Shown one piece after another: positions 1-60,240 of a stretch of DNA of 64,000 nucleotides. The stretch covers positions 11,532,001-11,596,000 of the forward strand of contig OZ024748.1 of assembly GCA_964016885.1 (NCBI GenBank), in the 5' to 3' direction. The stretch comes from Eledone cirrhosa. Taxonomy: Eukaryota. Position 1 is the first letter of the stretch; every line of letters begins with the position of its first letter. The notes beneath the pieces were generated by a model that did no database searches, was not told the DNA's origin, and saw only the letters and a list, made by a program, of their open reading frames with translations. The translations under genes and the position numbers were made by a program.

Positions 1-142
1 ACCTTAAATACAGTGTGCGTCTCTGATCAAATCGGAATACTGGAGGGTGTAACACACACAACCTCTAACTGGATTACCTAAAACGACAACATGTTATCCC
101 ATATATGTAGTGACATACAACGTTGCATGGACATCTTAAATT

Positions 143-3729: not shown

Positions 3730-3993
3730 AACGAAGGAAATGTGGTAAGGAACCAGATGGACCATAACGCACCAAAGTACTCAATACTTAGGGTAGTAGA
3801 GTGGGTAATAGGAACAAGTAGGACCCCCGACGGCTGAGCTCAAGCCGTTTCGACGGCTAATTCTGGACTCAAAACCGGCTTGAGCTCAGCCGTCGGGGTC
3901 CTACTTGTTCCTATATATACTGTGTTACTTGTATATGTTGAATTAGCCGTCGAAACGGCTTGAGCTCAGCCGTCGGGGTCTTACTGGTTCCTA
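3730..3993 (-). mobile_element. Family A (TA)n-embedded fold-back element carrying the 3' half of a hammerhead, plus two inverted partial arms
   Basis: Long arm 3730-3870 (minus) and inverted arms 3876-3913 and 3940-3993. Motif GAAAC-GGC-ttgagctca-GCC-GTC. Nine more copies in the window. Confidence 0.8.
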
Positions 3994-4014
3994 TATATAT
4001 ACAGATACAGATAC

Positions 4015-5318: not shown

Positions 5319-5320
<2 letters not shown>

Positions 5321-5480
5321 CAAAGGAAATGTGGTAAGGAACCAGTTGGACCATAACGCACCAAAGTACTCAATACTTAGGGTAGTAGAGTGGGACCCCG
5401 ACGGCTGAGCTCAAGCCGTTTCGACGTCCAGAATTAGCCGTCGAAACGGCTTGAGTTCAGCCGTCGGGGTCCCACTCGTT

Positions 5481-5483
<3 letters not shown>
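5319..5483 (-). mobile_element. Family A fold-back element
   Basis: Same sequence as the 3730 copy, with an inverted arm joined at gacgtccagaattagccgtc and (TA)n on both sides. Confidence 0.8.
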
Positions 5484-5514
<31 letters not shown>

Positions 5515-5576: not shown

Positions 5577-5580
5577 ATGT

Positions 5581-6186
5581 CAGGTCACCAGTTGGTGCTA
5601 CTGGTAACATGTATCCCAGTACAACCTGTCTCATGGTCGGGTCGTTGGCGACTAAACTGGCAACCCCACCAAGGTTTCTTGGTGAGGAGGGTGACTTTGG
5701 ACATCCTGCAGGACTAAAAACAAAACCTGTCAAAGGGCAAAGGAGCTCTTAAGAGTCAATGGCCATCCAAAATCACCGGGAGAGATGACCCCTTAGCCTT
5801 TGTCAAGGCAGAATTCTAGGAGAAGGAAAACTCTGATATAACACCTGCAACCCTGATGGTATCCAATGATGTTGACTTGTTCTTCTTTTTGGTAAATATC
5901 ATCTTGGTTAAGAGAGTGGGACTGGCTTTGTGCAGTGCCTTTGCTCACTATAAAAGCTTCACGGCACAGGCATTGCTTTATATCTGGAGATCTCTCTGCA
6001 CTTGTCGTCACATGGTACCATGGGCCCAACACTATGTGTCAATAATTGTCACAAGTGTAGTCTTTGTACCAGAGTTTTCAAGTCGCTGGCTGGACTAAAA
6101 AGTCACACTCGTTCAGCGCATCAGTAGGGGTTCTCCTACATGGATATAAAGTAGTGGCCGTACTCGAAAACGAGTTGGCAGCCACC
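5581..6186 (+). mobile_element. Non-autonomous ~606-bp RTE-derived element (5'UTR-like part fused to the ORF 3' end), in (ATGT)n
   Basis: Near-identical to three copies at 13446, 14157 and 15379. Contains ctaggagaaggaaaactctga, recalled from RTE 5'UTRs. 6050-6127 encodes [25 protein letters not shown], a C2H2 finger like RTE ORF C-termini. Ends with a ctcg-aaaa-cgag hairpin then an (ATGT)n tail. Confidence 0.75.
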
Positions 6187-7422: not shown

Positions 7423-8392
7423 TTTGAGTATATGTTGGTTGTATACCAACACCTCAGTATGCAGATTGGAGCACTAGACGAAGTGCGCAGGTTGGTTTGG
7501 TTACTCCGGAGTAGTGTAAAATAAACTAAAATAAATAAGTCAAATATTTAAAATTTGGCTTCGTTTATTATTTGGCAGTAATAAACGAAGCTAAATTTTA
7601 AATATTTGACTTATTTATTTAGTTTATTTTATATATATATATATATATTATAAATATATATATATATGTTGTGTGTGTGTGTGTATGTGTGAGTGTGTGT
7701 GTGTGTGCATGTATATAAAATCTTCGTTTAGAAATCTAAAGAATGTGGAGAATGAAAACACGTATGGTAGCAATGGTAGTATAACCATTAGCACGGATTT
7801 CTATGAAGACATCACTATAGAATATAAAATATTGTATTACTTAAAACTTCTAATATCGTGAGGAAATTACTTCCGGACAGAAGTCCTAGGAGCGATGGGG
7901 AAAAACAAAACAACAAAATACAACGAAAAAAAAAATTACAAACAAATACAAAAATCAATAAAAAAAAAACTAGAAAAAAATAGAAAACCTAATAAAATAA
8001 ACTACAAACAAAAAATACAGAAACCAATAAAATAAACTACAAAAAAAAACCCCCTAACAAACCAACAAACGCTATATCCATTTCCTAGTAGTCAACATCT
8101 GTACTATGTATTCCAACATGAACAAACAAATAAAATTACAAAAAATAAATAAATATAAATAAAAATATAAATATAATAAAAAAGAGAAAAGCTGTACTTT
8201 TAGGTATTGTACATTACATTAGGGAATATAGAAAAACCTTTCTAAATAAGAGAGAAACCCCGAGAAAGAGAATAGGGGAAATTAACCAGAATAACAGAGT
8301 TATATATACAATACTATGGTACATTGTTGTTTACACAAACACATCTTTCTTTCTCTTTCTCGTTCCCCCCCCTCTCTCTCTCTATATATATA

Positions 8393-8909: not shown

Positions 8910-9043
8910 AACGAAGGAAATGTGGTAAGGAACCAGATGGACCATAACGCACCAAAGTACTCAATACTTAGGGTAGTAGAGTGGGTAATAGGAACGAATA
9001 GGACCCCGACGGCTGAGCTCAAGCCGTCGGGGTCCTACTCGTT

Positions 9044-9046
<3 letters not shown>
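8910..9046 (-). mobile_element. Family A fold-back element folded at the loop III palindrome
   Basis: taggaacgaataggaccccgacggc-tgagctca-agccgtcggggtcctactcgttccta, in (TA)n. Confidence 0.8.
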
Positions 9047-9077
<31 letters not shown>

Positions 9078-9245: not shown

Positions 9246-9970
9246 AATAATAATAATTGTTTCTACGTTAGGCACAAGGCCAGCAATTAACCAGTGCATT
9301 ACTGGTACTTTATTTTATCGACCCCGTAAGGATGAAAGGCAAAGTTAACCTCGGCGGGATTTGAACTCAGAATGGCAAGGGCCGTAACTCTATACGTCAA
9401 AGCATGGCGTCCGACCCTCTCCCGATATTGCCAATCCACTGACCAATAATAATAATGGTTTGTGATTTAGGCACAAGGCCAACGATTTGGGGGGAGGGGA
9501 GAGTCGATTAGATTGACTCAAGTACATTACTGGTACTTTATTTTATCGACCCCGTAAGGATGAAAGGCAAAGTTAACCTCGGCTGGATTTAACTCAAACC
9601 GTAAAGGGGCGTAACTCTATGCTTCAAAGCATGGTTTCTAATTTAGGCACAAGGCCAAAGTATTTGGGGGAGGGTAGAGTCGATTAGATTGACCTCAGTG
9701 CATTACTGGTACTTTATTTTATCGACCCCGTAAGGATGAAAGGTAACGCTAACCTTGGCTGGATTTGAACTCAAAGTGTAAAACGCCGTAACTCTATGCC
9801 GCAAAGCATGTTGTCCGACGCTCTACCGATACTGCTACCAATCCGCCCTCTCTCAAGCATAAATTATAGGAGAGGTTAGACGATTAAATCGACCCCAATA
9901 TTTTACTGGTATTGTATTTTATCAACCTCGGTAGGATGAAAGATTAATAATTTGACTTTGGCAGAATTTC
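9246..9970 (-). mobile_element. Cluster of about 4 tRNA-derived SINE copies (Meta/MESC-like central domain)
   Basis: Reverse strand has A-box-like tggcartatcgg, B-box gagttcaaatccc, central gcctttcatccttacggggtcgataaaataaagtaccagt, and tail ggccttgtgcctaa...(att)n. Confidence 0.85.
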
Positions 9971-10435
9971 AACACAAAACGTGAAACAGTTCATGACATT
10001 TTGTCCGATTCTCTGAAAATGTTGGTGAAAAAAGAGAGAAATTGGGAACAGAGAGGGAGTAGCATGGAATAGGTGAAAGTGAGAGGGGGAGAGACATAGA
10101 GTGGGGGGGGCATAGAGTGGGGGCGAACAAATAGAAAGGGAGAGAAGAAAACATGAGAAAAGACCATTGAGTGATGCTGATTATATGGGAAAGTGAAAAC
10201 AATGCCGAGAGGGGGGGGGGAAGAGGGGGGAGGAGGAGGAGAAGAAGAAGAAGAAGAAGAACAACAACAACAACAACAATAACAACAACTACAATAAAAT
10301 AAAAAGCGGAACATTGAAAATAAACGAGAGCAAAGAATGAGAGAGAGGGAGAGAGAGAGAGAGTGTGTGTATGTGTGTGCGTGCGTGTGTGTGTGTATGT
10401 GTGTGTGCTACAGTAAGAATGAAAGAGTGATAGAT

Positions 10436-13445: not shown

Positions 13446-13707
13446 GGTGGCTGCCAACTCGTTTTCGAGTACGGCCACTACTTTATATCCATGTAGGAGA
13501 ACCCCTACCAATGCGCTGAACGAATGTGACTTTTTAGTCCAGCCAGCGACTTGAAAACTCTGGTACAAACACTACACTTGTGACAATTATTGACACATAG
13601 TGCTGGGCCCATGGTACCATGTGACGACCAGTGCAGAGAGATCTCCAGATATAAAGCAATGCCTGTGCTGTGAAGCTTTTATAGTGAGCAAAGGCACTGC
13701 ACAAAGC
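13446..13707 (-). mobile_element. 5'-truncated copy of the RTE-derived non-autonomous element
   Basis: Reverse complement of ~5925-6186, abutting a ~400-bp (TACA)n tract at its 3' end. Confidence 0.8.
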
Positions 13708-13843
13708 AGCATATATATATACATATACATATACATACACATACACATACATACATATACACATACACACATATATACATACATACATACATATATACAT
13801 ACATACATACACACATACATATACATATACATACATACATATA

Positions 13844-13955: not shown

Positions 13956-14156
13956 CATATACATATATATATACATACATATACACATACATACATACAT
14001 ACATATACATACATACACATACATATACATATACATACATACATATACACACATATATACATACATACACATACATATACATACACACATACATATACAT
14101 ACATACACATACATACACATATACATATACATACACATATACATATACATACATAT

Positions 14157-14762
14157 GGTGGCTGCCAACTCGTTTTCGAGTACGGCCACTACTTTATATC
14201 CATGTAGGAGAACCCCTACCGAAGCGCTGAACGAGTGTGACTTTTTAGTCCAGCCAGCGACTTGAAAACTCTGGTACAAACACTACACCTGTGACAATTA
14301 TTGACACATAGTGCTGGGCCCATGGTACCATGTGAGGACAAGTGCAGAGAGATCTCCAGATACAAAGCAATGCCTGTGCCGTGAAGCTTTTATAGTGAGC
14401 AAAGGCACTGCACAAAGCCAGTCCCACTCTCTTAACCAAGATGATATTTACCAAAAAGAAGAACAAGTCAACATCATTGGATACCATCAGGGTTGCAGGT
14501 GTTATATCAGAGTTTTCCTTCTCCTAGAATTCTGCCTTGACAAAGGCTAAGGGGTCATCTCTCCCGGTGATTTTGGATGGCCATTGACTTTTAAGAGCTC
14601 CTTTGCCCTTTGACAGGTTTTGTTTTTAGTCCTGCAGGATGTCCAAAGTCACCCTCCTCACCAAGAAACCTTGGTGGGGTTGCCAGTTTAGTCGCCAACG
14701 ACCCGACCATGAGACAGGTTGTACTGGGATACATGTTACCAGTAGCACCAACTGGTGACCTG
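14157..14762 (-). mobile_element. Full copy of the RTE-derived non-autonomous element
   Basis: Reverse complement of 5581-6186 with few substitutions, and (TACA)-type repeats on both sides. Confidence 0.8.
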
Positions 14763-15378: not shown

Positions 15379-15920
15379 GGTGGCTGCCAACTCGTTTTCG
15401 AGTACGGCCACTACTTTACATCCATGTAGGAGAACCCCTACCGATGCGCTGAATGAGTGTGACTTTTTAGTCCAGCCAGCGACTTGAAAACTCTGGTACA
15501 AACACTACACCTGTGACAATTATTGACACATAGTGCTGGGCCCAAGGTACCATGTGACAACAAGTGCAGAGAGATCTCCAGATATAAAGCAATGCCTGTG
15601 CCGTGAAGCTTTTATAGTGAGCAAAGGCACTGCACAAAGCCAGTCCCACTCTCTTAACCAAGATGATATTTACCAAAAAGAAGAACAAGTCAACATCATT
15701 GGATACCATCAGAGTTGCAGGTGTTATATCAGAGTTTTCCTTCTCCTAGAATTCTGTCTTGACAAAGGCTAAGGGGTCATCTCTCCCGGTGATTTTGGAT
15801 GGCCATTGACTCTTAAGAGCTCCTTTTCCCTTTGACAGGTTTTGTTTTTATTCCTGCAGGATGTCCAAAGTCACCCTCCTCACCAAGAAACCTTGGTGGT
15901 GTTGCCAGTTTAGTCGCCAA
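15379..15920 (-). mobile_element. Near-full copy of the RTE-derived non-autonomous element, missing ~60 bp at the 5' end
   Basis: Reverse complement of ~5645-6186, with (TACA)n flanks. Confidence 0.8.
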
Positions 15921-15938
15921 TACATACATACATACATA

Positions 15939-16796
15939 CCACGAAATACCTGATTCACAAAAGAGATAGGGATGCAGGCAAAACACCTAGATGTGATAAC
16001 AAGTGCAGACTCTGCAGAACTAACATCGAGGATATCACCCATGTCATCAGCAGCTGTCCAAAGATGTCATCGCGGTACTATTTGCCTATGAGGCGTGATG
16101 TAGTGGCCAAAATACTGTACAATGCAGTTCGTAAAAAAGATAGCCCCGATAATAAACACATTAAAAGCTACAACAATGTGGAAGACATCCATGTACATAA
16201 TATGAAAGAGTACTGGTGGAATGTTCCAGTAAAAACCACAATAAAATGCGGGCAAAACAGATCAGATATTATGATATGGGACAGGGAGAAGAAAACATGT
16301 ACAGTAGTGGAAATTAGCTGCCCAGCAGATGCCAATATAATATCACAGATTAGTGAAAAGGAGAATATTTATGCAGAACTGATGAGAAATCTGCAGAAAC
16401 TCCACCCTGATTACACCTTCAGATTTATGCCTGGGATTATTGGGGCACTGGGATATGTTAGTAACTGCCTCAATACAAATCTTGAGAAGCTAGGCTTCAC
16501 AGGAACAGAAAGAACACAACTAGTTAGGAAATTACAAGTGCAATCCATTAATGGAACAGTAAAAATATGTAAAACATTCCAAATATTTTGCATATACATA
16601 TGTACAGATACAAAGCATATACACATGCACACATACAACTCAAAACATACACATCCACACCTACAATAACATCCATATCTACACATGCATATCTTCCTAG
16701 TTGATGTTGTGTAAATTCCAATGAGAGTCTTGTGTCGATGTTAGAAACCGACTCTCTCTATTGGTAAAACTTTGTGAAATTATAAAACCAGAAGAA
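15939..16796 (+). mobile_element. 3' fragment of a restriction-like-endonuclease non-LTR retrotransposon (R4/Dong-like)
   Basis: Frame from 15941 reads TKYLIHKRDRDAGKTPRCDNK-CRLC-RTNIEDIT-H-VISS-C (CCHC knuckle), then RRD (for RHD), RSD (for RPD), VVEISCP, EKENIY and GIIGALG. The 3' UTR ends in (CATA)n, which is also present at the 5' junction. Confidence 0.85.
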
Positions 16797-20099: not shown

Positions 20100-20275
20100 T
20101 CAGAATGGAAGCGGTAAAAACCAGTTAGACCATCACTCACCAGAGTACTCGATACTTGGGGTAGTAGAGTGGGTAATAGGAACAATTCTAGACCCCGACG
20201 GCTTAGCTCCTGCCGTTTCAACAGCTAGATTTAGCTGTTGAAAGGGCTGGAGCTCAGCCGTCGGGGTCCCCAATT
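20100..20275 (-). mobile_element. Diverged Family A fold-back element
   Basis: gtagtagagtgggtaataggaac...gaccccgacggc, folded at tttcaacagcta-gatt-tagctgttgaaa. Confidence 0.7.
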
Positions 20276-20283
20276 TTTCATAT

Positions 20284-20353
<70 letters not shown>

Positions 20354-22793: not shown

Positions 22794-23138
22794 TAGGAGG
22801 TGAGTTTTATTGTAGTACAATAAAGCAATGCAGATATCGGATAAGAAGCACTCTACAGTTTGTAGGACTGGAGTATACATAATATATAAGAACAAAAGAT
22901 GGTTAAAAGAGTTCCATGTATTTTATTATGCGCATTTCAAAAACAAATATCATCATGCAATAATATTTGTGTTTTCATCAGATAAAATAGGAGGACATGA
23001 TATGAAGGTTAAAAAACACTTGTGGATAGTGCAGTTTTAAATCAACATATGTTGATTTATAACTGCACTATCCACAAGTGTTTTTTAACCTTCATATCAT
23101 GTCTTCCTGTTTTATCTGATGAAAACACAAATATTATT
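22793..23138 (-). mobile_element. Family C hammerhead-bearing element with a 90-bp fold-back arm
   Basis: 22793-23051 is the reverse complement of 55527-55785. 22959-23138 is a spacer-less palindrome. Confidence 0.8.
22919..22989 (-). ncRNA. Type I hammerhead ribozyme (Family C)
   Basis: tattttat-CTGATGA-aaacacaaatattattgcatgatgatatttgttttt-GAA-ATGCGCAT-A-ataaaata: 8-bp stem I, long stem II, palindromic minimal stem III. Confidence 0.8.
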
Positions 23139-23141
23139 ATA

Positions 23142-23505
23142 TCTGTCCTACGCCATTTTGTTTCTGTGAAACAGAAACAAAATGGCGTAGGACAGAAGAA
23201 AGGAAAGGCACAGAAACAAAGAAAGGAATCCCCAGTCACTGAAGAGGTCACAGAGTGTGTGACGAAAGGACTATGACTATATATAAACAACTATCTGGTT
23301 GTGGAACCAACCAACCAACCAGAAATTTATAGGTTTGTAGATTTGTAAATTTATAAATTTATAAATATATAATAAATTGAAGTGAAAGCAACTGGTGCGT
23401 GTGTTTCTTATTGGCAACATGACCCTCCCAAAGTATAACAATATCGGTTTCAACACACGATTTCAGATAAAGAATCTTGCTAAACAAATTCAGAAACGAA
23501 ATATA
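23142..23505 (+). mobile_element. Family D hammerhead-bearing element with a 26-bp 5' fold-back hairpin and a 3' tail
   Basis: Homologous to 44697-45036. Hairpin at 23142-23196. Ends in (TA)n. Confidence 0.75.
23234..23278 (+). ncRNA. Minimal type I hammerhead-like motif (Family D)
   Basis: agtca-CTGAAGA-g-gtcaca.gagtg.tgtgac-GAA-A.ggac.T-A-tgact. Stem III is only 1 bp. Confidence 0.6.
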
Positions 23506-28835: not shown

Positions 28836-29002
28836 AACGGAGGAAATGTGGTAAGGAACCAGGTGGATCATAACGCACCAAAGTACTCAATACTTAGGGT
28901 AGTAGAGTGGGTAATAGGAACGAGTAGGACCCCGACGGCTGAGCTCAAACCGTTTCGACGGCTAATTCTGGAATTAGCCGTCGAAACGGCTTGAGCTCAG
29001 CC
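28836..29002 (-). mobile_element. Family A fold-back element
   Basis: ccgtttcgacggctaattc-tg-gaattagccgtcgaaacgg palindrome, in (TA)n. Confidence 0.8.
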
Positions 29003-33595: not shown

Positions 33596-33745
<150 letters not shown>

Positions 33746-35134
33746 GTGTTTGTAACATTATCATTTGGTTGTATTTAGTGGTTTTAAAATATGATTTGTG
33801 TTTGTGGCCAGACTGGGGCATTATTTTCTAAAATAATGTCGATGCATTGTCCCCAAAACATATTTTTATCGACTTCTTATGAAAGAAAGATACTGTTGAC
33901 CTGGTTCAGAATTGAACTCAGAATATAAAGAGTTACTTTACCCTCGTTACTACCAATTCTGTCATTCCACTCCATATTTGTATATATATATATATGTGTG
34001 TGTGTGGGGGGAGGGGAGTTTGCTTGTATATATGTGTATATGTATGTTTGAAAAGATGTATTATGTATGTATGCGTTTGTTTGTGCGTATGCAAGCATGT
34101 ATGTGTTTGTTTGCATGCATGTATGTATGTTTGTTTGCATGTATGTATGAACGTATGTGTGTATGAGTATATGTATGCATATATTATGTTTGTGTTTATT
34201 TAATGTGTGTGTATACATGTATGTATGTACGTATATATGCATGTATGTATGCACTTATTTGTTCGTGTACATATCTATAAGTATATATATGCATATATGT
34301 ATGTGTTTGTATATGTATGTCGCATGTAGGTATGTATGAGTAGGTGTATGCATAAATGTATGTATGTGTTTGTAAGTGTATTTACGTATGTATGTATGTG
34401 TTTATATGTGCATGTATGATGTATGTATATATGTATGTATGCATGAATGAATGTATGTATGCATGCATGAATGTATGTATATATGTATATATGCATGTAT
34501 GTATGCATGTATGTATGAGTATAGTATGCATATATGAATGCATGTATGTTTGAGTATACATATATATGTATATATTTATGTATGAATCAATATGTATGTA
34601 TGAGTGTAAATATGTGTTTTTATGTTTGTTTATATATGTGTTTATATGCCTATTTTCTTGTATGTATATACCACTGGTAATAGTAAAACTGCACACCAAA
34701 CTGTCATTCTATTCAATATTCAATTCACCTTATCTAAGAATTAAGATGTCGGACTCTACACACAAGAAAGATCGTATATAGAAACGGCTTTTCCCCAGTG
34801 CTGTATACATCTTCAACAAACGAAGAATCCAGTCTTATCCGTATAAAACTCTCTATTATATTTCCTTCAGACTTATCTCTGTTAGGTGAGCTATCAATCG
34901 TCTGCATTTCGTATTTGAATATTATGATACGGAATTTCAATGACAATGTCAAAATACTGCAAATCAATTCTTTTCTTGTCTATATACATAACTAACTAAA
35001 TGTTTATATGTGTATAAGTATACATGCATATATATATATATATATATATATATGCATATAGAGATATAGAGATATATACATATAAATATATGTGTGTGCC
35101 TATGTATATATAATATATTTATAATATATGTTTG

Positions 35135-39011: not shown

Positions 39012-39310
39012 ATCTGGAAGAAATCTACTGAAGTCAAATCTGGAGAGGGGATGGGTTCTGCCAGGTTTAAACATAAACATTAATCAGTAAGATAAACGAC
39101 TTCGTGTTATATACGATATGCACAATAAGTAATGAGTTTTTATTTCTAATAATACAAACCTGATTACATCATTGAGTGAGTAAGGAAATGGCCGAAGCTG
39201 CACCTATTCTCTTCTACTAGCTTCGTAAACCTATATATATATAAACATATAATACATATATATATATATACATTTACACACATATATGGGTGCGTGTATA
39301 TATATATATA

Positions 39311-39426
39311 TAGGAAAAGAGTCAGGACCCCGACGGCTGAGCTCCGTCTATTTTCCTATTACCCCTAAGTATTGAGTACTCTGGTGCGTTATGGTCCACC
39401 TGGTATCTTACCACACCCTCTTTGTC
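39311..39426 (+). mobile_element. Diverged Family A element with a short inverted arm
   Basis: taggaaaagagtcaggaccccgacggctgagctc joined to the tail ...cctaagtattgagtactctggtgcgttatggtccacc. Confidence 0.7.
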
Positions 39427-40495: not shown

Positions 40496-40551
40496 ACTGC
40501 TATATATATTTCGATGATAGCCATTGAATGGCTATGACCTCATCAGGCAGT
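40496..40551 (-). ncRNA. Type I hammerhead ribozyme (Family E)
   Basis: actgc-CTGATGA-ggtcatagccatt.c.aatggctatcatc-GAA-ATATATAT-A-gcagt, followed by aaataaa. Confidence 0.8.
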
Positions 40552-40856
40552 TAGTCAGTTCTTAGATATGCCAGCTCTGTGTTTATAGTGTTGATGGTAT
40601 CAGAGCCTTGGGACATATGAGCTTGTTAGGAATAATTTAATGTTGTCAGCAGGAATAGTCTTAATTCTCATTGGTCAGTTTGTAGTTGCTAGTAGGGTTG
40701 GTATTTGACCTCAAAGAGGCAGGTGGTGTTGTAAAGTTCAAACCGCCAGGCAAGATGACAATAGTTCCATATGACTGATTTTCACAAAAAGCATTCCTGG
40801 TCAGATATATATTCAATTAAGGTTAATAGTATGAAATAGATACTACAGGTCATTCT

Positions 40857-41140: not shown

Positions 41141-41585
41141 ACACAAATCCATACAGGTGTGTATATATACATATGTACGCACAAGTATATATATATATAT
41201 AAAATACATATATACATATAAAATATATATATATATAAAATATATATATATAAAATATATATACATATATAAAATACATATATATATAAAAAAAAATATA
41301 TATATATATATACTTATAAAATACATATATATATATATAAAATACACACATATACACATACAAAATACATACATATATACATATAATACATATACATATA
41401 TATAAAATCAGGTTCAATAAAACGTGGTTTTGATGACTCCTAACCAGTAGAGGATCCGGTGGACCATCCACCATAGGGACCACAAACTATGGGTGGTTGT
41501 TGTTGTCCATTGGTCATTGGTACGGGGTGTAGGGGACCTACAGGGGGGGGGGGGGGGGGGCGTTGTGGGATGCCTTAACCGGGGT

Positions 41586-42029
41586 TTATCCATATAGCTT
41601 GAGGAAAGTTTCCGTCCTTATGTGTCTGCAGGCACCGAATAAGTCAGCCCTTCTGTTTAATAGCTTGGTTCCGCCATGAAGTATCTCGAGTGTCTCACTA
41701 AGACAGAGGTTGCAAATACCAGACGCGCCTCTGTCTGGGGGAACCTTTCTAACCACGGACCATACCAGAGAGTGCGGGGTCTTTTCAAGTTTGAGCTTCC
41801 AGATCAATTCAGAAAGGGCCGTACATTTCCTCTTATCTATTCTGTTAAAGGAATGGCGATGGTTATACCACCGATCTTTGAAGCTCGTCGCTGTGGATCC
41901 TATGTAGTGGTGTTCCGAGTTAGGGGTTGTGACCTTGCACCTGTAGACTACGTTTTTCGTCATGCATTCATTACTGAGGGGGCATAGTGATGGGTCTCTG
42001 CAATTACATGACTTCTTAAGCCCCACCAC
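41586..42029 (-). pseudogene. PLE GIY-YIG endonuclease domain
   Basis: CNCRDPSLCPLSNEC (Cys-rich Neptune-type linker), VVY...YIG.T..SFKDRWYNH, TALSELIWKLK, CNLCLSE, LLNRR.DLFGACRH. Confidence 0.9.
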
Positions 42030-42079
42030 ATGTACCGCGTGGTTACCATCACTCGGAGTTGACTAGGTAGCCTCCGCAA

Positions 42080-42541
42080 TCAGCACAGGGTCGTTGGGTT
42101 CCGGTGTGCTAGTTGGGCCTGTCCGGGTTCCGGTGCGTCCCGCGTGCTGGTTCTGTTGGGTGACTCCTGTTGGGTGACTCCGGGGTTTACGGTGGTATTA
42201 GAGGCAGTGAGCCTATTCCTATTTATGCCAGCTATGTGCTGGGCTACGGAGCGTGTGTTTGAGTAGGAAAGTTTCACCGTGTACCTGTTGAATATTTGAT
42301 GGTACTTGTGGGCCCTATGGAAACATTTATCCAGTACTCTAAAGAATGTTCTAGCCAGGCTGGTACGTAGACCCACCGAGTTCGGAGGGTTATACCATGT
42401 GACCTTCCTGGTCCTATTCTTGCGGGGTTGTTGGGTGTCCGCCGTGGGCCATCGCGTGGTTGTGCACAGCTCAGGTCGAGCTCGGTTGGTGTCTCTCAGG
42501 TGTGCGGAGCGGTCACTATCATGAGGGTTATATAGGCCCAC
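42080..42541 (-). pseudogene. PLE RT-thumb/linker region fragment, frameshifted relative to the endonuclease
   Basis: RKVTWYNPPNS...FFRVLDKCF...YHQIFNRYTVKLSYS, a motif set typical of Neptune-like PLE ORFs upstream of the endonuclease. Confidence 0.8.
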
Positions 42542-42751
42542 CGTGGGGCTATAAACCTGCGAGGTGCGGCCTCCCTGCTCAATTAGGGTTCGGCGGGTGG
42601 TGGGGCCGGTGCAGGGGTGCCTATTCTCCGCAGCACTGTGGTCTTCAGCGTTGTATTAGACCGGTGGGGTATGCGGGACCTTCTACCGGGGGTGGTGACG
42701 GATAAGGATCTGGGAGTGTTACTACTGGTCACAGAGGTATTAGTATATATA

Positions 42752-42787
<36 letters not shown>

Positions 42788-45896: not shown

Positions 45897-45915
45897 TATA
45901 TATATATATATATAT

Positions 45916-46094
45916 AGGAACGAGTAGGACCCCGACGGCTGAGCTCAAGCCGTCGAGTCCAGAATTAGCCGTCGAAACGGCTTGAGCTCAGCCGTCGGGG
46001 TCCTACTCGTTCCTATTACCCACTCTACTACCCGAAGTATTGAGTACTTTGGTGCGTTATGGTCCACCTGGTTCCTTACCACATTTCCTTCGTT
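45916..46094 (+). mobile_element. Family A fold-back element
   Basis: Short inverted arm 45916-45954, long arm with tail to 46094, (TA)n on both sides. Confidence 0.8.
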
Positions 46095-46096
46095 AT

Positions 46097-59686: not shown

Positions 59687-59688
<2 letters not shown>

Positions 59689-59865
59689 CGAATGAAATGT
59701 GGTAAGGAACCAGGTGGACCATAACGCACCAAAGTACTCAATACTTAGGGTAGTAGAGTGGGTAATAGGAACAAGTAAGACCCCGACGGCTGAGCTCAAG
59801 CCGTTTCGACGTACAGAATTAGCCGTCGAAACGGCTTGAGCTCAGCCGTCGGGGTCTTACTTGTT

Positions 59866-59869
<4 letters not shown>
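59687..59869 (-). mobile_element. Family A fold-back element
   Basis: Long arm 59687-59810, inverted arm 59811-59869, (TA)n flanks. Confidence 0.8.
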
Positions 59870-59904
<35 letters not shown>

Positions 59905-60099: not shown

Positions 60100-60220
60100 A
60101 ACAAAGAAAGTGTGGTAAGAAATCAGGTGAACCATACCGTACTCGATACTTAGGGTAGTAGAGTGGGTAGTAGGAAAAGAGTAAGGACCCCGACGGCTGA
60201 GCTCCGGCCGTTTCGACAGC
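60100..60220 (-). mobile_element. Diverged Family A element truncated at the base of stem II
   Basis: ...ggaccccgacggctgagctccggccgtttcgacagc, then (TA)n. Confidence 0.7.
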
Positions 60221-60240
60221 TATATATATATATATATTCA

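What the first reader, a model, noticed from the sequence alone, without database searches (positions are those of the whole stretch)
45916..46094. Family A: no copy retains the CUGANGA half, and most fold back at the ribozyme's own hairpins
Copies at 3730, 5319, 8910, 20100, 28836, 39311, 45916, 59687 and 60100, plus a tail fragment at 33709. The conserved part reads GAA-ACGGC-ttgagctca-GCCGT-C-ggggtcc, which is stem III with a palindromic TGAGCTCA loop and a GUC site. Inversion junctions differ between copies but lie in the presumed stem II (gacggctaattctggac / gtccagaattagccgtc) or the loop III palindrome. The short arm usually stops at ttccta, while the long arm carries ~80 nt of extra tail. 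Different junctions imply independent events, suggesting that reverse transcription stalls or self-primes at ribozyme hairpins.
Basis: partly seen in the sequence, partly recalled or inferred. Interest (0 to 1): 0.72.

Follow-up and report, generated by a model that had tools for sequence, protein, structure and literature searches.

The report
Penelope stubs start inside their ribozyme
These short back-to-back repeats are end-pieces of a very abundant Penelope-type jumping gene, and they lack the first half of its hammerhead ribozyme motif, likely because the element's RNA starts in the middle of that motif and the copying enzyme runs off that start rather than stalling at hairpins.

Summary
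The ten window copies are real, and none keeps the 5' half of the hammerhead. They are 5'-truncated, head-to-head insertions of a Hydra-clade Penelope-like element (719-aa RT plus GIY-YIG ORF, intact young tandem copies, (TA)n target; at least 22,312 exact tail ends). The master core reads UUGANAA (U3-A8, a known variant), not CUGANGA. Arm ends avoid the hairpins: 106 of 161 lie 34-46 nt before the cleavage site, 21 in stems II/III, and few pass -46. At that wall there are untemplated T-runs, template jumps, an excess G before A(-41), an initiator-like motif and a TATA-like box 29 nt upstream. Long arms pair with long arms (0 of 44 partners at the wall). Best reading: both nicked target strands prime one RNA at +20 and +100; on transcripts that start inside loop II both cDNAs run off and are joined end to end. 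No RNA data tested the start site. The scan noted run-off stubs in other genomes and twin arms in this genome before; I found neither the run-off wall nor a start inside the ribozyme in the papers searched.

The parts
45914..45953 (-). Short (tail-less) inverted arm: element positions +20 to -20; outer end at TTCC-TAT, continuous with (TA)n
45954..45955 (+). Two junction bases (CG); the G stands directly before A(-41), where the master has T (candidate cap-derived G, inferred)
45956..46096 (+). Long (tailed) arm: element positions -41 to +100; begins at the A of the initiator-like TTAGTC
45966..45973 (+). 3' strand of hammerhead stem II (TAGCCGTC); its partner strand is absent from this copy
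   Evidence: MFE fold of the master; pair counts
45974..45996 (+). GAAA core strand, stem III with loop III, GUC triplet; predicted cleavage after C17 at 45996
45997..46016 (+). 3' strand of stem I and first priming site (TAT at +18..+20, 46014-46016)
46017..46096 (+). 80-nt tail between the two fixed outer ends; second priming site TAT at +98..+100; in the master it continues into the 5' UTR and ORF
3730..3994 (-). Inverted copy (tailed arm to about -41/-44, short arm to about -20) plus a third, tail-less arm from -35 at about 3945-3994
5319..5485 (-). Inverted copy (arms to about -26 and -40; internal deletion in the tailed arm)
   Evidence: read by eye
8910..9048 (-). Inverted copy joined through the stem III near-palindrome (tailed arm to -20)
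20100..20286 (-). Older, diverged inverted copy (arms to -31 and -35)
28836..29002 (-). Inverted copy (arms to -37 and -35; short arm ends early at stem III)
33707..33750 (+). Tail fragment from +18
39310..39426 (+). Diverged inverted copy; short arm ends in the AGCT palindrome of loop III (-13)
59687..59870 (-). Inverted copy (arms to -27 and -39)
60100..60222 (-). Single diverged arm to -31, no inversion

Best explanation
Family A is the ribozyme-bearing end of a Hydra-clade Penelope-like retrotransposon, and its short back-to-back copies are likely two cDNAs that were primed from the two nicked strands of a (TA)n target and likely ran off the 5' end of an RNA predicted to start inside loop II of the hammerhead. 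Steps. (1) Shown: the master is pLTR - 719-aa RT/GIY-YIG ORF - about 1.2-kb 3' UTR - pLTR, unit 3.1-3.5 kb, with a complete hammerhead fold (U3-A8 core) in each pLTR. (2) Shown: insertions have two fixed outer ends, at +17..20 and +100. Inferred: these are two internal RT start sites, each at a TAT that can pair with the (TA)n primer. (3) Shown: both arms of one insertion carry the same subfamily marks, and either arm can be the longer. Inferred: both are copied from the same RNA. (4) Shown: short arms stop at a wall, -34..-46. Inferred: this is the RNA's 5' end, a polymerase II start mainly at A(-41) with a second at A(-45); cDNA ends get an extra C (cap) or untemplated As, are trimmed by 0-10 nt, or jump to a new template. 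(5) Inferred: the two cDNA 3' ends are joined head to head by end-joining with short microhomologies or templated insertions. (6) Inferred: long copies and tandem arrays come from the downstream pLTR of uncleaved read-through (or circular) RNA, where no 5' end is near. The missing CUGANGA-type half is thus a consequence of where the RNA begins.
For: Master and ORF; intact 717-719 aa ORFs in 6 of 10 units examined, units 99.7-99.96% identical within arrays; fold resembles telomerase RT, best hit E 5.6e-9. Outer ends: 71 at +17..20 and 58 at +100 of 141 arms; none at the other TATs (+42, +62, +148). Same marks on both arms in 40 of 44 against 28.5% by chance. Tail-less arm further 5' in 24, tailed arm in 26, equal in 15 of 65. 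Wall: 106 of 161 ends at -34..-46; stop rate per base 0.14 at -41..-46 against 0.003 in stem III and 0.006 at -47..-100. Genome-wide, of 8,871 exact arms reading to -44, 2,517 have T at -45, 270 have G or C, 1,653 have A but not C at -46. T-runs of 4-17 nt; 29 of 30 such loci are junctions. Jumps from -38..-44 back to +162, +191, +195, +213, +316 and +917, and one to +317 from a less certain point. 0 of 44 inverted partners of long arms end at the wall, against 53 of 65 inverted arms in the tail-anchored sample (pairs seen from both sides are counted twice). G at -42 in 20 of 42 junction arms with a non-T base there, against 31 of 137 at other end positions (Fisher p=0.003). T[T/C]AGT[C/A] at -43..-38 fits the initiator TCAKTY, and TATTTAAA starts 29 nt upstream (consensus and spacing from PMC4581360, passages). 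A second family in the same loci shows a like wall 12-13 nt before a YY1-type motif: 12 of 28 ends at -13..+6, none at -14..-78 (YY1 site at nt 9-20 of human L1 sets its start, PMC11602158, passages). Precedent: PAc RT extends both strands, starts at two internal sites that bound the tail, and gives shorter products on 5'-shortened RNA (PMC11167929, parts 1-2 of 4); the TSS lies in the pLTR in Penelope and Chlamys-3 (Craig et al., passages).
Against: The start site is inferred from DNA only. The G excess was found post hoc, after a first test at -45/-46 showed none (G in 9 of the first 100 at -46; about half of 270 at -45). About 6 of the 20 Gs can be read as the partner arm's own base. Ends spread over 13 nt (-34..-46), which needs trimming or several starts as an added assumption. 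The TATA-like box has one mismatch, is 1-2 nt closer than the textbook -30/-31, and is poorer in the CUGAGAA subfamily. Two mixed cases (L102, L167: a long arm beside an arm ending at the wall) were seen by eye and missed by the automated count; L230 has a long partner and an end at -26. The sample is young copies from the first 27 Mb of one chromosome, chosen by an exact tail match. Pair covariation does not exceed shuffles (441 of 500), and Rfam finds no hammerhead in the master, so the ribozyme rests on fold and core pattern. PAc was reported to prime without homology to the target, whereas here both sites carry TAT.
Confidence: 0.7

Rival explanations
1. RT stalls at ribozyme hairpins, and a single cDNA (or an antisense template) folds back and primes itself (the first reader's reading; self-priming was proposed for palindromic PLE junctions in PMC3846280).
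For: Some junctions sit in palindromes of the motif: window 8910 and 39311; AATT, TCGA, GTAC centres in L181, L123, L172. 25 of 65 junctions have 1-6 nt microhomology. Fold-back would also explain identical marks on both arms and coupled arm lengths.
Against: Only 21 of 161 ends lie in the lower stem II strand, GAAA or stem/loop III; the enzyme passes stems I, III and lower II and stops in an AU-rich stretch. The tail-less arm is longer in 24 of 65 (19 by 3 nt or more), so it needs its own RNA priming. Untemplated T-runs and jumps at the wall fit a template end. Head-to-head chimeras between family A and another PLE family (L003, L008, L011) need two cDNAs.
Confidence: 0.08
2. The wall is a fixed block or a processed end, not a transcription start: a protein bound at loop II, a nuclease cut, or a branched adenosine (the -48..-44 sequence fits yUnAy in all subfamilies, and T[T/C]TTAG looks like a 3' splice site).
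For: Many cDNAs seem to end at -44 without copying A(-45); TTCAT, CTTAT and CTAAT/TTAAT are all branch-point-like (consensus recalled); no G excess at -45/-46; PLE 5' UTRs hold introns (Craig et al., passages).
Against: A per-molecule block should hit the two arms independently, yet 0 of 44 partners of long arms stop there. Apparent -42..-44 ends can be A-tails on a -41 end, because the master has TTT there. The next AG is only 4 nt from the candidate branch A. The second family's wall has no such motif but has promoter-type motifs.
Confidence: 0.15
3. The short palindrome is itself a non-autonomous mobile unit (MITE- or SINE-like) copied as a whole.
For: High copy number, uniform size, inverted ends.
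Against: 61 distinct junctions among 65; arms run on into an RT/EN ORF in long copies; asymmetric tail; target duplications cannot be read in (TA)n.
Confidence: 0.02
4. Long head-to-head insertions collapsed after insertion by central deletion of the palindrome, or the palindromes are assembly artefacts.
For: Long inverted repeats are unstable (own knowledge).
Against: No reason for ends to pile up at one template position, to carry T-runs, or to appear in direct jumps and single arms; many long inverted pairs persist (22 pairs among 100 long arms).
Confidence: 0.04

Closest known systems
Hydra clade of C-terminal EN+ Penelope-like elements (Craig et al. 2021; bioRxiv 10.1101/2021.04.23.441226 passages and section 11; PMC8557442 supplement rows and alignment passages)
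   Same: DKT, CxCX5C linker, no two-cysteine GIY-YIG core, (TA)n target, hammerhead in the pLTR; the printed Hydra alignment matches the ORF motif by motif, by eye.
   Different: Unit is 3.1-3.5 kb (published ones generally under 3 kb); the three published Hydra hammerhead rows I saw have CUGANGA cores and short loop II; two family-A motifs are absent from the supplement as unbroken strings; Hydra-1_Obim is a different family.
Poseidon PAc of Anolis carolinensis (PMC11167929, parts 1-2 of 4)
   Same: Two internal RT start sites downstream of the hammerhead bound the tail; both target strands are extended; products shorten with the RNA's 5' end; ribozyme cleavage is dispensable for insertion.
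   Different: PAc start sites are 7 nt apart in the ORF and not homologous to the target; here they are 80 nt apart in the 5' UTR and both at TAT. The paper parts I read do not map a run-off wall in genomic copies.
PLE hammerheads, including the U3-A8 variant of Schistosoma Cercyon (PMC4209133, parts 1-2 of 4; PMC3088659, passages)
   Same: Type I motif in pLTRs, U3-A8 core, opposite-strand pairs of motifs, mostly truncated single copies.
   Different: Full 5-bp stem III and a roughly 40-nt loop II rather than a minimal motif; a large subfamily with a C3.A8 mismatch (23 of 78); most genomic copies hold only the 3' half.
Adineta vaga Penelope structures (PMC3846280, passages)
   Same: Head-to-head inverted pLTRs, tail on one end, palindromes at the junction, TATA plus initiator-like motifs in the pLTR.
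   Different: That paper reads the palindromes as self-priming on an antisense template; the counts here favour two sense-templated cDNAs.
R2 reverse transcriptase end behaviour (PMC8857657, abstract and introduction)
   Same: Non-templated addition and template jumping after the cDNA is finished.
   Different: R2 primes at the RNA 3' end from one strand; it is a different clade and endonuclease.

Membership tests
EN+ Penelope-like elements | Single ORF with telomerase-like RT and C-terminal GIY-YIG endonuclease | tested here: met
   719-aa ORF with FDIESYY, YRDDG and VIY..YIG; model's best matches are TERT structures. Pfam and PDB sequence searches gave no hit.
EN+ Penelope-like elements | pLTRs in tandem or partial tandem, inverted 5'-truncated copy, tail on one end | tested here: met
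Hydra clade | DKG changed to DKT | tested here: met
   DKT at residue 117; K and T in 35 of 35 aligned, D in 34
Hydra clade | Linker CxCX5C | tested here: met
   CNCPDRSIC at 572-580
Hydra clade | [quoted passage not shown] | tested here: met
   one non-conserved Cys (14%) between VIY and YIG
Hydra clade | Insertion into (TA)n | tested here: met
Hydra clade | Generally under 3 kb | tested here: not met
   unit 3,118-3,543 bp; stated in the paper as a tendency
Hydra clade | Groups with Hydra RTs in a tree | not tested
   reference sequences were seen only as supplement text and compared by eye
Type I hammerhead ribozyme | Three stems around the core, GAAA and NUH | tested here: met
   MFE fold of the master gives all three stems with the core unpaired; 95% of cells paired against 24-61% when slid
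Type I hammerhead ribozyme | Canonical C3-G8 (CUGANGA) | tested here: not met
   0 of 78 complete copies; 6 sporadic genome-wide. U3-A8 in 54 of 78 is a published natural variant.
Type I hammerhead ribozyme | Compensatory covariation in stems | tested here: inconclusive
   2 pairs with double changes, not above shuffles; copies are 88% identical
Type I hammerhead ribozyme | Self-cleavage | not testable with these tools
   needs an assay
MITE | One fixed internal sequence between terminal inverted repeats, with target duplication | tested here: not met
   61 distinct junctions of 65; target duplication unreadable in (TA)n
Non-LTR retrozyme | Tandem non-coding units, each with a complete hammerhead | tested here: not met
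   window copies are dispersed half-motifs; one 299-bp tandem derivative at L270 does have this layout

The most novel reading that the evidence does not exclude
The element hides its promoter inside its ribozyme: the TATA-like box and initiator lie in loop II, so every unit transcript begins with a half hammerhead and only the 3' copy is whole. Cleavage there would remove the downstream priming sites, leaving only the 5' sites and hence dead-end stubs; uncleaved or circular RNA would give full copies and tandem arrays. The ribozyme would then be a switch that limits full-length transposition, and the two halves at the ends of one transcript could re-form an active ribozyme across the ends and close a circle from a single unit.
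Probability: 0.3. Interest if true: 0.72.

Novelty: new variant of a known kind. Interest (0 to 1): 0.5.

Why it matters
How Penelope-like elements make inverted pLTRs and one-sided tails, and what their hammerhead does, are named as open questions in Craig et al. 2021 (passages read). This family offers tens of thousands of young events and intact ORFs, with exact predictions: two priming sites (+20, +100), a start at -41/-45 inside loop II, two template classes, and a successful subfamily with a mismatched core. If right, the stubs are a genomic record of the RNA's 5' end and of priming from both strands, and each step can be tested with one recombinant protein and CAGE. The parts (Hydra clade, U3-A8 core, tail, inverted arms) are each known.

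Tried and rejected
Rfam scans of the window (top 150 of 542 listed rows are almost all microsatellite-driven miRNA matches, none a hammerhead) and of the master (0 hits). First CTGANGA search used too short a gap (8-38 nt); its 22 hits are junction accidents or other families; repeated with 40-68 nt. Pfam and PDB sequence searches of the ORF: nothing. An exact-walk breakpoint caller was too brittle and was replaced by a split alignment. Cap-G test at -45/-46: negative; my first guess of a single start at A(-45) was then moved to A(-41). Sequencing runs: no RNA holder listed. Contigs of four runs of unknown kind from one study hold the family, its upstream continuation and the (TA)n end at +20, but no piece spans the 45916 junction; they may be the assembly's own sample. 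A search of earlier findings by sequence gave nothing. PMC5860796 (passages) gave no statement on cap-derived G, so that point is recalled. PMC13282606 (passages) has no mention of hammerheads. Full-length monomers starting at the wall were looked for among 30 of 304 ORF-linked tails: those starting there were short jump products, and none was full length. Considered and rejected: splicing at TTTAG (arms keep the would-be intron bases and jump points vary); a MITE; a retrozyme for the window copies.

Full report
Numbering: -1 is the predicted cleavage nucleotide C17 (window 45996), +1 the G after it.

1. Observation. The window is 32% GC and 38% simple repeat, in a 3.0-Gb animal genome. BLAST with 45916-46094 finds ten clusters at the places listed. 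All lie in or beside (TA)n, 8 of 10 have an inverted arm, and none passes -44. The copy at 45916 is: short inverted arm +20..-20 (45914-45953), the bases CG, then the long arm -41..+100 (45956-46096). Genome-wide there are 34,004 exact core arms, 22,312 exact tail ends followed by ATA and 304 tails that run on towards the ORF; reversed-pattern controls gave 0. These are lower bounds.

2. The master. Longer copies continue upstream with GGAATTACCCC-TTGA(G/T/A)AA-G-N-TCGGCTA (4,264 exact matches). The minimum-energy fold of -95..+25 is a type I hammerhead with all three stems. Among 78 complete copies not selected for their core, 54 have U3-A8, 23 C3.A8, 1 U3.G8 and none C3-G8; position 7 varies G/T/A while U4 and A9 are invariant. 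Only 6 of 32 G8 matches genome-wide have the canonical CTGAnGA. U3-A8 is a published natural variant, in PLEs too (PMC4209133 parts 1-2 of 4; PMC3088659 passages). Rfam does not detect the motif and covariation is not above shuffles, so activity is untested. The copy at 45916 carries the stem I marks of the CUGAGAA subfamily; that subfamily spread despite a mismatched 3-8 pair, which agrees with cleavage being dispensable for insertion in vitro (PMC11167929). Between two such motifs lies one ORF, 719 aa from the ATG at +191. It has 2,054 relatives at E <= 0.001, a confident model (pLDDT 88.6) closest to telomerase RT, and DKT, CxCX5C and no CCHH core, which define the Hydra clade. Tandem arrays with intact ORFs and 99.7-99.96% identical units show recent activity.

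3. Outer ends. Of 141 arms, 71 end at +17..20 and 58 at +100, each at a TAT continuous with (TA)n; the TATs at +42, +62 and +148 are not used. This matches the two internal start sites that bound the tail of PAc (PMC11167929). Both arms share four subfamily marks in 40 of 44 insertions (28.5% expected).

4. Inner ends. I took the first 100 exact tail ends on C1, fetched 30 loci and 60 regions around them (the last few positions were not fetched) and recovered 96 distinct insertions, 65 with an adjacent inverted arm. Of 161 arm ends, 106 lie at -34..-46, 11 at -24..-31 (stem II strand), 10 at -1..-23 (GAAA, stem and loop III), 25 downstream of the cleavage site, 3 at -50/-51 and 6 beyond -100. 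Junctions are 15 blunt, 25 with 1-6 nt microhomology and 25 with inserted bases; 61 of 65 are distinct. The tail-less arm reaches further in 24, the tailed arm in 26. In 200 kb beside the window, taken without pattern selection, 24 of 50 ends lie at -35..-45 and a further six at -31, mostly in an older subfamily (some clusters are counted from both sides). So the enzyme passes the GC-rich helices and stops in the AU-rich 3' side of loop II.

5. What the wall is. (a) Of 8,871 exact arms reading to -44, 2,517 have T where the master has A, only 270 G or C, and 1,653 keep A but lose C(-46) (part of the last group are native variants). T-runs reach 17 nt and 29 of 30 such loci are junctions: the cDNA ends carry untemplated As. 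(b) Partial tandems show jumps from -38..-44 back to +162..+917. Addition and jumping are what R2 RT does on finishing a template (PMC8857657, abstract and introduction). (c) Long arms pair with long arms: 0 of 44 adjacent inverted partners end at the wall (76 of 86 long arms resolved, 44 with such a partner), although L102 and L167 are mixed cases seen by eye. A per-pass stall would not couple the arms this way; two template classes would. (d) Among 97 junction arms that reach A(-41), the next base is T 55, G 20, C 16, A 6; G is 20 of 42 non-T against 31 of 137 at other end positions (p=0.003; post hoc; about 6 Gs and 7 Cs can come from the partner arm, about 7 Cs are native). An extra G is the recalled mark of copying a cap. 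No such excess exists at -45/-46. (e) T[T/C]AGT[C/A] with A at -41 fits the initiator TCAKTY, and TATTTAAA starts 29 nt upstream (PMC4581360 passages). Because the master has TTT at -42..-44, many apparent -42..-44 ends may be A-tails on a -41 end; some arms are templated to -45/-47, so a second start at A(-45) is likely. (f) A second hammerhead family in the same loci has its own wall 12-13 nt before a YY1-type motif and about 35 nt after a GCGCATGCGC motif (NRF1-like, recalled) (PMC11602158 passages).

6. Mechanism. Shown: structure, ends, coupling, additions. Inferred: the endonuclease nicks both strands of (TA)n; each 3' end primes the same RNA, at +100 and at +20; on unit transcripts these sites lie only 60-140 nt from the 5' end, so both cDNAs run off, are tailed or trimmed, and are joined at their 3' ends. 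Chimeras in which an arm of another PLE family meets a family-A arm head to head (L003, L008, L011) show that two cDNAs can be joined. Long copies would come from the downstream pLTR of read-through or circular RNA.

7. Known and new. Inverted arms, one-sided tail, junction palindromes, (TA)n targeting, hammerheads in pLTRs, U3-A8 and a TSS in the pLTR are all in print. I found no paper that maps a run-off wall in genomic PLE copies or a start site inside the hammerhead; searches were in an open-access library that lacks most subscription papers, including Schostak et al. 2008 (not seen). [quoted passage not shown] The retrozyme preprint 10.64898/2026.07.22.740005 (part 1 of 5 read) bears only on the L270 array. 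I noted the run-off idea before opening the scan's earlier notes; these report twin arms in this genome and run-off at a start site in other genomes. They are unchecked AI notes and not independent support; one of them prompted the second cap-G test.

8. Verdict. Observation partly confirmed; interpretation partly supported. Hydra-clade PLE stubs: about 0.97. Two cDNAs joined head to head: about 0.8. Wall equals the RNA's 5' end and is a transcription start inside loop II: about 0.7. Interest 0.5.

Noticed in passing
L270 (G000:C2:356,029,800-356,032,000): 299-bp tandem array of at least 7 units derived from family A (+221 joined to -99), each with a complete UUGAGAA hammerhead whose loop II is shortened by a deletion that removes the -70..-42 spacer; 2 distinct sequences among 6 full units. 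A retrozyme-like derivative with a tailed end.
   Followed up: partly
L003, L008, L011 (about 1,290-1,560): Head-to-head chimeras of a family-A arm with an arm of another hammerhead-bearing PLE family; two of the three foreign arms end at CAGTT, an initiator-like motif. Selected by a CTGANGA pattern, so biased.
   Followed up: partly
window 23,140-23,304; L004, L012, L145 and others: Second hammerhead family (CTGAAGA-G-GTCACAG...GTGAC-GAAA) with YY1-type and NRF1-like motifs and its own 5' wall; in L004 and L012 a family-A arm continues into it through a short shared word.
   Followed up: partly
window 41,561-42,755 (minus strand): 3' part of a different Hydra-type PLE ORF (40-44% identity to the family-A protein over the C-terminal regions; CNCRDPSLCPL linker).
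   Followed up: no
window about 40,520-40,560 (minus strand): Third hammerhead-like motif (CCTGATGAGGTCATAGCC...ATCGAAATATATA) of a family seen in many loci.
   Followed up: no
window 5,579-6,186; 13,446-13,709; 14,156-14,762; 15,379-15,919: A young ~600-bp repeat in four copies, 97-99% identical, in both orientations.
   Followed up: no
window 9,247-9,985 and about 15 other places: Abundant SINE-like repeat with internal tandem duplications.
   Followed up: no
window 15,914-16,666 (+): 251-codon open frame with CxxC..HxxxxC and a restriction-like endonuclease-type C-terminus, probably a non-LTR retrotransposon remnant (identification recalled, not tested).
   Followed up: no
window 22,959-23,196 and 7,539-7,610: Near-perfect palindromes of other repeat families.
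   Followed up: no
master -30..-15 (window 45,967-45,982): AGCCGT-CGAA-ACGGCT can form a 6-bp hairpin that excludes both stem II and stem III; it appears in the predicted fold of RNA starting at -45, a possible off-state for the half-ribozyme.
   Followed up: partly
master +63..+103: A 13-codon upstream ORF lies in the tail, ahead of the main ATG at +191.
   Followed up: no
sample (L111, L112, L118, L151, L174, L177, L190, L199): In 8 of 65 insertions the tailed arm stops at +22..+71, before reaching the +20 site, while in 7 of them the other arm reaches the wall or beyond; this could reflect a collision with the second priming complex on one RNA.
   Followed up: no
L315-L334: An older subfamily has UUGAAGA (U3.G8 wobble) and a different loop II, yet keeps the sequence from -45 onward.
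   Followed up: partly
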